Source: a virus (taxonomy: Duplodnaviria > Heunggongvirae > Uroviricota > Caudoviricetes). Taken from it: DNA of 4,457 bases. The translations under genes were made by a program, and so were the position numbers. The notes below the pieces were generated by a model. It was given only the letters and a program-made list of their open reading frames with translations, was not told the origin of the DNA and made no database searches. Numbering within the stretch: the stretch's first letter is position 1; each line of letters starts with the position of its first letter. Of the stretch, positions 2,701 through 3,360 are shown one piece after another. The stretch lies in the IMG/VR virus record IMGVR_UViG_2778261056_000003. One strand, given 5' to 3'.

Positions 2701-2715
2701 GCGCTGACAAAGCGC
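2701..2715 (+). promoter_or_regulatory. nutL boxB hairpin (P22-type)
   Basis: GCGCT-GACAA-AGCGC is a 5-bp stem with a GACAA pentaloop, identical to the P22 boxB-left RNA as I recall it. It lies in the leader between PL and the N-like gene. No convincing boxA was found upstream. Confidence 0.65.
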
Positions 2716-2976
2716 AATAACCAAAGTGAACTTTGGGGTGTGGTGAAGCCAGCTAGTCACTGGCAAGTGCTTACCTACTGTTGAGCGGTGAAGCGCTCCC
2801 AACGCTAGCAATAGCGTGGACGAGATGGGGAGCCGCGGGCGATAAGGCCGCCATAACGCGCACGTTGTCGCATGGAAAAATCACTGGGGTGCCGGTTATA
2901 CCCCTCCGAATGAGACTCAACAAGCTGGAGCTAGACTACCAGCCACCACACCACCAAAGTTCATCAGGAGGTCTAT

Positions 2977-3360
2977 ATGACACGCAGAACTCAGTTCAAA
3001 GGCAATTCACGTTCTCGTCGTCGTGAGCGTTTAAAGGCAAAGGCATTAGCTAACGGCGTACTGGCCCGCGAAGAAGCAATAAGTTCAGAAGTATTACACC
3101 GCCCTACTCTAAGCAGAGCGCAGATTCAGGCTAAAGGTACTCACGAAACGCCTGAGCGCATAGAAGACGCTAAGCCAATTAAGTTCATGGCACAGGACGT
3201 GATCTGGCAACAGAAAGAATACAGACGCAATCTGGAGCGAGCGGCCATTGTGTACGCGAATGAGTTTGGACATAAGCAACCAGAAACTGGTGTATGTCTT
3301 CCAAACGTAGCCATTTACGCGGCAGGCTACCGGAAATCAAAACAACTGACAGCGAGGTAA
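2977..3360 (+). CDS. N: N-family transcription antitermination protein (P22 gp24-like)
   Basis: 127-aa ORF. Strong SD AGGAGG (2966-2971) lies 5 nt before the ATG. N-terminal arginine-rich motif GNSRSRRRERLKAKALA. C-terminus PNVAIYAAGYRKSKQLTAR resembles the recalled P22 gene 24 protein C-terminus (PGVALYAAGHRKSKQITAR). First gene downstream of PL/nutL. Confidence 0.88.
   Translation: MTRRTQFKGNSRSRRRERLKAKALANGVLAREEAISSEVLHRPTLSRAQIQAKGTHETPERIEDAKPIKFMAQDVIWQQKEYRRNLERAAIVYANEFGHKQPETGVCLPNVAIYAAGYRKSKQLTAR

What the first reader, a model, noticed from the sequence alone, without database searches (positions are those of the whole stretch)
2701..3360. P22-type boxB (GACAA pentaloop) paired with an N-like protein, next to a lambda-like cII/oop module
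The nutL boxB (2701-2715, GCGCUGACAAAGCGC) and the nutR boxB (complement of 397-411, UCGCUGACAAAGCGA) both carry the GACAA loop characteristic of P22 N recognition. The N-like protein has an arginine-rich motif and a P22 gp24-like C-terminus. In contrast, the cII 3' end and oop terminator are near-identical to lambda at the nucleotide level. The antitermination and lysogeny-establishment modules therefore appear to have different origins. The two boxB stems differ by a compensatory base-pair change (G-C to U-A at the stem base), which supports a functional hairpin. No boxA is evident upstream of the nutL boxB.
Basis: partly seen in the sequence, partly recalled or inferred. Interest (0 to 1): 0.5.

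Follow-up and report, generated by a model that had tools for sequence, protein, structure and literature searches.

The report
H-19B-type N antitermination module
The finding is real but ordinary: this is the already-studied N antiterminator gene and its two RNA recognition hairpins (nutL, nutR) from the Shiga-toxin phage H-19B/933W/HK97 family, sitting in an E. coli prophage with H-19B immunity.

Summary
Both hairpins exist. Both have a GACAA pentaloop, and the nutL hairpin is identical to P22 nutL boxB.

The 127-aa ORF (2977-3360) is an N protein. It is 100% identical to 933W N, 98% to HK97 N, and 124/127 identical to H-19B N. The window's cI is identical to H-19B cI, its nutL region is identical to H-19B nutL, and its nutR differs by one base in boxA. 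This is therefore the experimentally characterised H-19B N/nut system, already annotated in GenBank records of 933W and mEp234.

The P22 likeness is limited to boxB, the arginine-rich motif and the last 30 residues of N. No canonical boxA precedes nutL boxB, which fits my recollection that H-19B N does not need boxA.

"Near-identical to lambda" is overstated: 79% over the last 76 nt of cII, with only the oop terminator arms identical. Most of cII is H-19B/933W-like.

Novelty: already known. Interest: low.

The parts
2604..2639 (+). Early leftward promoter PL: -35 TTGCCA at 2604-2609, -10 TAAAGT at 2627-2632, inferred start at about 2639 (ATCAGCAGGACGC, as in lambda, P22 and H-19B).
   Evidence: Promoter scan. 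The 5' leader ATCAGCAGGACGC is shared with lambda, P22 and VT2-Sakai. The position matches the PL annotated in mEp234. The start point is inferred.
2649..2657 (+). CGCACTACT, the sequence annotated as nutL 'boxA' in the mEp234 record and as the first bases of nutL in the 933W record. It has 4 mismatches out of 9 to CGCTCTTTA and is probably not a functional boxA.
   Evidence: Lambda has the equivalent CGCACTGAC at the same leader position and carries its real boxA further downstream.
2657..2671 (+). Small conserved leader hairpin UCACC-AGGGC-GGUGA.
   Evidence: Folds. The same CACC/GGUG stem is present in lambda with a different loop.
2681..2696 (+). nutL spacer hairpin GAUUC-GAAUAU-GAAUC, followed by UACG (2697-2700).
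   Evidence: Folds. The stem is invariant while the loop varies (GAATAT, AAATAT, AAGCAA, AAACAT, AGTGAT, AGAGAT) across relatives. It matches the 'dyad symmetry in the spacer' of H-19B nut sites, which I recall from the literature.
2701..2715 (+). nutL boxB: GCGCU-GACAA-AGCGC.
   Evidence: Identical to P22 nutL boxB and to the H-19B, 933W, HK97 and mEp234 nutL boxB. Invariant in 79/79 loci carrying this N.
2721..2736 (+). CCAAAG-UGAA-CUUUGG: a possible local hairpin that competes with the long-range leader stem.
   Evidence: Read from the sequence. Lambda and P22 keep an equivalent duplicate with matching base changes. Untested.
2731..2745 (+). 5' arm of the long-range N-leader basal stem (CUUUGGGGUGUGGUG).
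   Evidence: Inverted repeat I8. Pair probability about 1.0. Covariation across 10 leader types: 95.3% paired, 9 of 15 pairs changed on both sides, slid controls 39-50%.
2746..2943 (+). Interior cassette of the N leader: a structured, G+C-rich multi-branch region.
   Evidence: Leader fold z -4.0. 99.6% identical in Sf6, HK446 and mEp043, which have a lambda-type nutL and N. It is one of at least three cassettes found with this N. No Rfam family and no tRNA-like gene.
2944..2959 (+). 3' arm of the basal stem (CACCACACC-A-CCAAAG, bulged A at 2953).
2966..2971 (+). Shine-Dalgarno AGGAGG of N, 5 nt before the ATG.
   Evidence: Read from the sequence. Conserved in relatives.
2977..3360 (+). N antitermination protein, 127 aa. 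ARM is 12-RSRRRER-18. The C-terminal ~30 aa resemble P22 gp24.
   Evidence: Pfam PF25694 and PHROG 271. 100% identical to 933W N and 98.4% to HK97 N. 124/127 identical to H-19B N. The ARM numbering and length match the H-19B N mutagenesis paper PMC3526286.
405..419 (-). nutR boxB: UCGCU-GACAA-AGCGA.
   Evidence: Identical in H-19B, 933W, HK97 and mEp234. Invariant in 74/74 loci.
420..435 (-). nutR spacer hairpin GGAC-AUUC-GUCC (435-424), followed by UACG (423-420).
   Evidence: Fold. The G-U variant GGGC keeps the pairing. [quoted passage not shown]
442..450 (-). nutR boxA-like CGCUCUUUU, 1 mismatch to CGCUCUUUA. H-19B and 933W have CGCUAUUUU.
   Evidence: The boxA reference sequences come from PMC2724277.
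20..319 (-). cII. It is H-19B/933W-like for its first ~240 nt and lambda-like for its last ~60 nt.
   Evidence: Pfam Phage_CII E 1e-33. Identities.
44..81 (+). oop-type intrinsic terminator, antisense to the cII 3' end. Arms and T-tract are identical to lambda's; the loop differs.
   Evidence: Terminator scan and alignments. The oop promoter would lie outside the window.

Best explanation
The interval is the nutL-leader-N segment of a lambdoid prophage with phage H-19B immunity. Its partner site nutR lies on the other strand, between cro and cII.

Inferred mechanism, by near-identity to a tested system:
1. Transcripts from PL (start about 2639) and PR carry boxB hairpins with a GACAA pentaloop.
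2. The N-terminal arginine-rich motif of the 127-aa N protein binds that loop. By analogy with the solved P22 N-peptide/boxB complex, the loop should adopt a GNRA-like fold with the C flipped out.
3. The central part of N recruits NusA to the spacer, and the P22-like C-terminus of N contacts RNA polymerase.
4. The modified polymerase then reads through the Rho-dependent terminator that overlaps and follows nutR, and through terminators downstream of N.

nutL has no canonical boxA. This fits the reported independence of H-19B N from boxA, NusB and S10, which I cite from memory.

Between nutL and the N start codon, a covarying long-range stem closes off a 198-nt interior cassette. That places nutL about 20 nt, through the stem, from the N Shine-Dalgarno. 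This is the same architecture as the lambda N leader, where an RNase III-sensitive stem lets the N/Nus complex at NUTL repress N translation.

Shown here: sequence identity, hairpins, covariation and family membership. Inferred: binding, antitermination, RNase III cleavage and autoregulation.
For: Identity with the studied system:
- cI 234/234, Cro 76/77 and N 124/127 identical to H-19B. nutL is identical over 87 nt, and nutR differs only by one base in boxA.
- N is 100% identical to 933W N.
- The 933W and mEp234 GenBank records annotate these very sequences as nutL and nutR boxB.
- H-19B N (127 aa, ARM 12-RSRRRER-18; mutants R3H, S11F, R15C/P and R18P abolish antitermination) and H-19B nutR (boxA, a spacer with its own hairpin, boxB) were characterised in vivo and in vitro (PMC3526286; PMC4499122).

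P22 link:
- P22 nutL boxB is identical.
- The GACAA loop with an extruded C is seen in PDB 1A4T (PMC12550061).

Conservation:
- boxB is invariant in 79/79 (nutL) and 74/74 (nutR) loci.
- The boxB stem covaries across N classes: 96.3% paired, four pair types at the base, slid controls 23-45%.
- The ARM class and the loop change together at both nut sites.

Leader:
- Stem covariation.
- The stem closes in all 11 leader types, 18-24 nt before the ATG.
Against: - Nothing was tested functionally for this particular prophage.
- N differs from H-19B N at three residues (E60D, K80E, I113L). None is in the ARM.
- The leader interior differs from H-19B's short one, so N autoregulation could be tuned differently.
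- The papers on boxA/NusB independence (Neely and Friedman 2000) and RNase III processing of the N leader (Wilson et al. 2002) were not available to read. Those points rest on memory.
- No solved structure exists for this N type by sequence search.
Confidence: 0.93

Rival explanations
1. The nutL-N module is a recent acquisition from P22 or a P22-like phage. On this view it is a true member of the P22 gp24 specificity class, and gp24 and this N are interchangeable.
For: - The nutL boxB is identical to P22's.
- The ARM aligns best with gp24.
- The C-terminal 30 residues are 67% identical to gp24.
Against: - Homology to P22 is confined to 15 nt of RNA and two short protein segments.
- The middle of N (about 55 aa) is unrelated and the protein is 27 aa longer. 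BLASTP aligns only the C-terminus.
- P22 nut sites have a canonical boxA 10 nt upstream and no spacer hairpin.
- P22 nutR boxB has a different stem (CCGCC/CGCGG).
- ARM residues that contact the flipped-out C in P22 (His and Arg, per PMC12550061) would be Arg and Lys here by my alignment.
- Functional interchangeability is untested.
Confidence: 0.15
2. The GACAA hairpins are chance or vestigial structures with no role in antitermination.
For: - Short 5-bp hairpins are common.
- In its 51-nt context the nutR hairpin is not significant on its own (z -0.7).
Against: - Two copies of the 11-mer, correctly placed and oriented, against 0.10 expected.
- A 19-nt block is shared between the two sites (I2).
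- The hairpins are invariant in about 80 loci.
- The stem covaries across classes.
- The sites are identical to experimentally validated H-19B nut sites (PMC3526286).
Confidence: 0.01
3. The main role of the nutR hairpin region is as a Rho loading (rut) and terminator element rather than as an N site. The main role of the nutL-proximal structures is mRNA processing or stability rather than antitermination.
For: - In H-19B the nutR spacer overlaps the rut site of tR1, and Rho footprints on the spacer (PMC3526286).
- The N leader stem resembles an RNase III substrate.
Against: - These roles coexist with N binding and do not replace it. In the same paper N with NusA protects the spacer and the boxB loop, and ARM mutants lose antitermination.
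- The boxB loop co-varies with the ARM class, as expected for a protein-recognition element.
Confidence: 0.05

Closest known systems
Phage H-19B N protein and its nutL/nutR sites (Stx1 phage; GenBank AF034975)
   Same: - The cI protein is identical, Cro is 76/77 and N is 124/127.
- nutL is identical over 87 nt.
- nutR is identical apart from one base in boxA.
- The spacer hairpins are the same.
   Different: - The cII 3' end and oop terminator are lambda-type here.
- A different two-ORF insert lies between cI and PL.
- The N-leader interior is the 198-nt Sf6-type cassette rather than H-19B's short one.
- The genes downstream of N differ.
Phage 933W and HK97 N/nut (annotated in NC_000924 and NC_002167; also mEp234, EF120460)
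   Same: - N is 100% (933W) and 98.4% (HK97) identical.
- Both boxB hairpins and the nutL spacer are the same.
   Different: - Different immunity (cI, cro and operators).
- 933W, HK97 and mEp234 carry the 165-nt leader type.
- The nutR boxA is CGCTATTTT in 933W, against CGCTCTTTT here and in HK97.
P22 gp24 and P22 boxB (NMR complex, PDB 1A4T)
   Same: - GACAA pentaloop, with an identical 15-nt nutL boxB.
- Similar ARM (GN..RR.ER).
- Similar C-terminal ~30 residues.
   Different: - The central region of N is unrelated and this N is longer (127 against 100 aa).
- P22 has a canonical boxA close to boxB and no spacer hairpin.
- P22 nutR has a different stem.
Lambda N leader (NUTL, RNase III-sensitive stem, N Shine-Dalgarno; translational autoregulation of N)
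   Same: - Same order of elements.
- Homologous basal stem (CUUUGGGGUGUG.../...CACACACC-A-CCAAAG) with the same bulged A.
- The stem ends about 20 nt before the ATG.
   Different: - Unrelated and longer interior.
- boxB is lambda-type (GAAGA loop) in lambda.
- RNase III cleavage and autoregulation have not been shown for this leader.
Lambda cII / oop antisense RNA
   Same: - cII family (Pfam).
- The C-terminal peptide KKRP...TERS.QIQMEF is shared.
- The oop terminator arms and T-tract are identical.
   Different: - Only 61% nucleotide identity over the whole of cII.
- The terminator loop differs by an indel.
- The oop promoter lies outside the window.

Membership tests
Lambdoid N / nut processive antitermination system | Small basic protein with an N-terminal arginine-rich motif that belongs to the N family. 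| tested here: met
   Pfam N_peptide PF25694, 57.5 bits against a cut-off of 27.9. PHROG 271, E 3e-39. The ARM is RSRRRER at residues 12-18.
Lambdoid N / nut processive antitermination system | N is the first gene of the PL operon. One boxB hairpin lies between PL and N, and a second lies between cro and cII on the opposite strand. | tested here: met
   Gene map. boxB at 2701-2715 (+) and 405-419 (-). PL-like promoter at 2604-2632.
Lambdoid N / nut processive antitermination system | boxA (CGCUCUU(U)A) upstream of each boxB. | tested here: inconclusive
   nutR has CGCUCUUUU (1 mismatch) at 442-450 (-). nutL has nothing within 2 mismatches; the sequence annotated as boxA in relatives, CGCACUACU, has 4 mismatches out of 9. 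As I recall, boxA is dispensable for H-19B N.
Lambdoid N / nut processive antitermination system | N- and nut-dependent read-through of terminators. | not testable with these tools
   Shown for the near-identical H-19B N and nutR (PMC3526286 and PMC4499122).
H-19B / 933W / HK97-type N-nut class | N protein essentially identical to H-19B, 933W or HK97 N. | tested here: met
   100% to 933W, 98.4% to HK97; 124/127 to H-19B.
H-19B / 933W / HK97-type N-nut class | nut sites with a GACAA boxB preceded by UACG and a spacer stem-loop. | tested here: met
   Identical to the H-19B and 933W sites. Folds.
H-19B / 933W / HK97-type N-nut class | Requires NusA but not NusB, S10 or boxA. | not testable with these tools
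   Recalled from Neely and Friedman 2000, which is not held in the library. The absence of a canonical boxA at nutL is consistent with it.
P22 gp24 specificity class | boxB with a GACAA pentaloop. | tested here: met
   Both sites have it. nutL boxB is identical to P22 nutL boxB. The loop is described in PMC12550061.
P22 gp24 specificity class | Full-length homology of the protein to gp24. | tested here: not met
   BLASTP aligns only the last 30 residues. The ARM region is similar (SW 46, 0 of 2000 shuffles), but the middle region is not (SW 17, 52% of shuffles reach it).
P22 gp24 specificity class | Functional exchangeability with gp24 on P22 nut sites. | not testable with these tools
   No data.
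Lambda-type N-leader regulatory stem (RNase III site) | A long-range stem between nutL and the N ribosome-binding site, conserved by covariation. | tested here: met
   95.3% paired, 9 of 15 pairs with changes on both sides, slid controls 39-50%. Pair probability about 1 in 10 of 11 leader types. Caveat: I cut the arms by hand from conserved anchors.
Lambda-type N-leader regulatory stem (RNase III site) | RNase III cleavage and N-dependent translational repression. | not testable with these tools
   Known for lambda (cited in PMC5725501). The primary papers are not held.
Lambda cII / oop module | Nucleotide near-identity to lambda at the cII 3' end and oop terminator. | tested here: not met
   79% over the last 76 nt of cII and 73% over the oop-equivalent. 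Only the terminator arms and T-tract are identical.

The most novel reading that the evidence does not exclude
The GACAA boxB of this N class differs from the GAAA boxB of the sister classes (VT2-Sakai, POCJ13, epsilon34/g341c-type) by a single inserted C, on otherwise identical nutR stems and flanks. That change tracks the ARM class at both nut sites.

If this one-nucleotide loop indel, together with a few ARM substitutions, is what insulates the N systems of co-resident Stx and other lambdoid prophages from each other, it would be a minimal natural specificity switch for an ARM-RNA pair. It could also decide whether induction of one prophage trans-activates early genes, and so toxin expression, of another.

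Separately, the exchangeable N-leader interior cassettes could set different RNase III-dependent set-points for N synthesis.
Probability: 0.3. Interest if true: 0.4.

Novelty: already known. Interest (0 to 1): 0.1.

Why it matters
For annotation, the window can be labelled with confidence as an H-19B-immunity lambdoid prophage with an H-19B/933W-type N, nutL and nutR. N-dependent antitermination controls early gene expression in many Stx phages, and through Q it controls late and toxin expression, so knowing the N class of a prophage is useful. It does not change what the field already knows.

The by-products are modest additions and not discoveries: ARM/loop co-variation across N classes, covariation support for the N-leader stem from lambda to P22, and the cassette-like leader interiors.

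Tried and rejected
- Rfam scan of the whole window at E<=1: nothing relevant. The only hit was a sub-threshold STnc310 match at 797-852.
- ARAGORN on the window and six relatives, prompted by a T-arm-like GGTTCGACTCC in the leader of L010: no tRNA or tmRNA.
- PDB sequence search with N: no relative. The only hit was a chance match at E 1.5.
- NCBIfam and PADLOC on the unassigned ORFs: no hits.
- Primary papers not held in the library: Wilson 2002 (PMC126142), Wilson 1997 (PMC275398) and Plunkett 1999 (PMC93574). Neely and Friedman 2000 could not be found.
- One literature search was swamped by 'nutrition literacy' papers.
- The supplement of PMC3526286 holds its figures only as images, so no H-19B nut sequence could be read from it. 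The GenBank H-19B record replaced it.
- The first leader-stem alignment (A2) was out of register because my arm lengths were unequal. I rebuilt it as A3.
- Two scripts needed fixing: a regex group error and a loop-length handling error.
- I considered and rejected the idea that the annotated nutL 'boxA' CGCAYTACT is a real boxA. Lambda has the equivalent leader sequence in addition to its true boxA, and the match to consensus is 5 of 9.
- The identity of the finding was settled without them.

Full report
**What the window is.** ORF listing and Pfam/PHROG scans give a lambdoid immunity region in which the + strand corresponds to lambda's leftward direction.
- cII: 20-319 (-)
- Cro-like repressor: 458-691 (-)
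- CI (S24 peptidase): 805-1509 (+)
- Two unassigned ORFs: 1579-2019 and 2016-2372 (+)
- Intrinsic terminator: 2383-2404
- PL-like promoter: 2604-2632
- 127-aa N protein: 2977-3360 (+)
- Small ORFs of unknown function downstream of N

**Checking the observation.**
- The nutL hairpin GCGCUGACAAAGCGC is at 2701-2715 and folds as a 5-bp stem with a GACAA loop.
That stretch reads AAAGCGAGCCCCAAG and does not fold.
- The hairpin UCGCUGACAAAGCGA is the complement of 405-419.
- The shared 11-mer occurs exactly twice, once per strand, against 0.10 expected.
- The two sites share a 19-nt block, CUACG-N-CGCUGACAAAGCG, in inverted orientation.

**Identity of the system.**
- The N protein is 100% identical to phage 933W N and 98.4% to HK97 N.
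- GenBank records of 933W and mEp234 already annotate these sequences as nutL and nutR boxB.
- The H-19B regulatory-region record (AF034975) is in the collection. Against it the window's CI is 234/234 identical, Cro 76/77 and N 124/127 (E60D, K80E, I113L; none in the ARM).
- nutL with its flanks is identical over 87 nt. nutR is identical except for boxA: CGCTCTTTT here, CGCTATTTT in H-19B.
- H-19B N and nutR have been dissected experimentally. The ARM 12-RSRRRER-18, the 127-aa length, the loss-of-function mutants R3H, S11F, R15C/P and R18P, and a nutR made of boxA, a spacer with its own hairpin and boxB are all described in PMC3526286. PMC4499122 adds further work.
- The window therefore carries an already characterised system.

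**How P22-like is it?**
- From the P22 genome, nutL is CGCTCTTTAA-CTTCGATGAT-GCGCTGACAAAGCGC and nutR boxB is CCGCC-GACAA-CGCGG. The window's nutL boxB is identical to P22's.
- The GACAA pentaloop with its extruded C is the structure solved in PDB 1A4T (PMC12550061).
- At the protein level BLASTP aligns only the last 30 residues with gp24 (67% identity).
- I made a segment-wise Smith-Waterman comparison with shuffling, against P22, lambda and phi21. My recalled phi21 N sequence was verified as 100% identical to the phage 21 record. The results were:
  - N-terminal 40 residues: closest to gp24 (46; 0 of 2000 shuffles reach it), then phi21 (44; 0.2%), then lambda (30; 4.5%).
  - C-terminal 32 residues: match only gp24 (90).
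  - Middle: matches none of the three.
- The P22 likeness is therefore real but confined to boxB, the ARM and the C-terminus.
- The nut spacers, the missing nutL boxA and the leader are not P22-like.

**boxA.**
- nutR has CGCUCUUUU, 1 mismatch to consensus. The consensus sequences come from PMC2724277.
- Between the PL start and nutL boxB nothing matches within 2 mismatches.
- The CGCAYTACT annotated as boxA in 933W and mEp234 has 4 mismatches. It corresponds to a 5' leader sequence that lambda also has, in addition to its true boxA.
It fits my recollection that H-19B N needs neither boxA nor NusB/S10 (Neely and Friedman 2000, not available to read).

**Are the hairpins conserved, and do they covary?**
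- Among 81 loci with this N (IMG/VR loci plus the window), nutL boxB is invariant in 79/79 and nutR boxB in 74/74. The G-C versus U-A difference is a single fixed state, not repeated covariation.
- Including sister N classes gives real covariation: 96.3% of cells paired, four pair types at the stem base, 12 cells changed on both sides, slid controls 23-45%.
- The ARM class and the loop change together:

| ARM | boxB loop | Phages |
|---|---|---|
| FKGNSRSRRRERLKAK | GACAA | window, H-19B, 933W, HK97 |
| FNGSA(A/S)GRRRERRAAL and FKGTAASRRRA(R/H)RA | GAAA or GCAA | S137, g341c, SI8, VT2-Sakai, POCJ13, two Enterobacter-group prophages |

- In the GAAA-type classes nutR is UCGCU-GAAA-AGCGA with the same flanks as the window's UCGCU-GACAA-AGCGA. 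The difference is one inserted C.
- The spacer hairpins are supported by invariant stems with variable loops (nutL GAUUC...GAAUC) or by a G-U substitution (nutR).

**What else lies in 2701-3360.**
- Between boxB and the N Shine-Dalgarno (AGGAGG, 2966-2971) the RNA folds well (z -4.0).
- A long-range stem, 2731-2745 with 2944-2959 and a bulged A, encloses a 198-nt interior.
- The stem arms are homologous to those of the lambda N leader. Across ten leader types from lambda, P22, H-19B/933W and Salmonella and Enterobacter prophages the stem covaries strongly: 95.3% paired, 9 of 15 pairs changed on both sides, slid controls 39-50%. I cut the arms by hand from conserved anchors, which favours pairing somewhat.
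- In all 11 leaders examined the stem is predicted and ends 18-24 nt before the N ATG. Pair probability is about 1, except P22 at 0.35-1.0. This holds even though the interiors are unrelated and range from 107 to 271 nt.
- The same N occurs with at least three interiors: leaders of 165, 261 and 128/129 nt.
- The window's interior is 99.6% identical to that of Sf6, HK446 and mEp043, which have a lambda-type nutL and N.
- Rfam has no family for it.
- By analogy with lambda, this is the RNase III-sensitive leader structure that brings NUTL next to the N ribosome-binding site for translational autoregulation (summary in PMC5725501). That step is inferred.

**The cII/oop claim.**
- Whole cII is 61% identical to lambda and 89% to 933W.
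- The first 240 nt are 94% identical to 933W.
- The last ~76 nt are 79% identical to lambda, and the last 60 nt are 68% identical to 933W.
- The oop-equivalent region (window 1-77) is 73% identical to lambda oop.
- The terminator arms and T-tract are identical to lambda (21/21 and 14/14), with a different loop.
- There is thus a mosaic joint near the end of cII. 'Near-identical to lambda' is overstated, and the module is mostly H-19B-like.

**Source and frequency.**
- The window matches E. coli prophages. Parts of it occur in 2127 of 5426 complete genomes, but none holds the whole window in one piece.
- Its particular combination of modules is one mosaic among many.

**Verdict.**
- The feature is the known H-19B/933W/HK97-type N antitermination module. 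Novelty: already known. Interest: low.

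Noticed in passing
window 1579-2019 and 2016-2372 (+): Two overlapping ORFs (146 and 118 aa) sit between cI and the immunity terminator (2383-2404), the slot that rexAB occupies in lambda. They have no Pfam, NCBIfam or PADLOC hit; ORF2 has only weak PHROG hits of unknown function. The 921-bp insert is present in only 4 of 5426 complete E. coli genomes. By eye, ORF2 is a Gly-rich linker, a coiled coil and a C-terminal membrane helix. 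This is a candidate prophage exclusion or defence pair.
   Followed up: partly
window 2746-2943 (N-leader interior): This is one of at least three unrelated interior cassettes found with the same N (leaders of 165, 261 and 128/129 nt in 60, 9 and 9 loci). The window's cassette is 99.6% identical in Sf6, HK446 and mEp043, which have a lambda-type nutL and N. The mosaic joints fall on the conserved basal-stem arms. No Rfam family matches it.
   Followed up: partly
window 2721-2736 versus 2954-2959: An upstream copy of CCAAAG can pair locally with CUUUGG in place of the distal CCAAAG of the long-range stem. Lambda (CAAAGC/GCUUUG) and P22 (CCAAAC/GUUUGG) keep an equivalent duplicate with matching base changes. 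This suggests an alternative, possibly co-transcriptional, structure.
   Followed up: no
L097-L101, L009, L010 (nutL and nutR of sister N classes), compared with window 405-419 and 2701-2715: The sister N classes (S137, g341c, SI8, VT2-Sakai, POCJ13 and Enterobacter-group prophages) have boxB with a GAAA or GCAA loop. Their nutR, UCGCU-GAAA-AGCGA, has the same stem and flanks as the window's and differs only by the absence of the loop C. The loop type tracks the ARM class at both nut sites.
   Followed up: partly
L096 (Salmonella phage SPN9CC), nutL at about 4383 and nutR at about 1705: This N is 86% identical to the window's, with ARM FKGTSRARRRERLKAK. Its nutL boxB is GCUCC-GUCAA-CGAGC, with a GUCAA loop and a C-C closing mismatch like P22 nutR. 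Its nutR is UCGCU-GACAA-GGCGA with a U-G closing pair. It is a natural variant of the GACAA class.
   Followed up: no
window 3614-3642 and 3935-3963 (+): A 29-nt direct repeat (93% identical; TTxTTTxGCAGCAAACCACTTATTTGAG) lies just upstream of two small ORFs, apparently as a duplicated translation-initiation or boundary sequence.
   Followed up: no
window about 60-85 (cII codons about 80-99, - strand): There is a mosaic joint inside cII. Upstream of it the gene is 94% identical to 933W/H-19B. Downstream, the gene and the oop terminator arms are lambda-type, whereas 933W/H-19B use a different terminator stem (CCCCGG/CCGGGG).
   Followed up: yes
window 1980-1987 (+): An exact lambda boxA octamer, CGCTCTTA, lies inside ORF 1579-2019 on the cI-operon strand. 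It is most likely chance: matches within 2 mismatches to boxA are no more frequent than in shuffled sequence.
   Followed up: no
window 2977 versus annotated N starts in BP-4795 (L002 4832), VT2-Sakai (L100 4429) and lambda RefSeq (L006 639): Several database records annotate N with an upstream start that runs into the structured leader, giving 149, 114 and 133 aa. In the window the AGGAGG at 2966-2971 and the conserved MTRRTQFKG N-terminus support the 127-aa form.
   Followed up: partly
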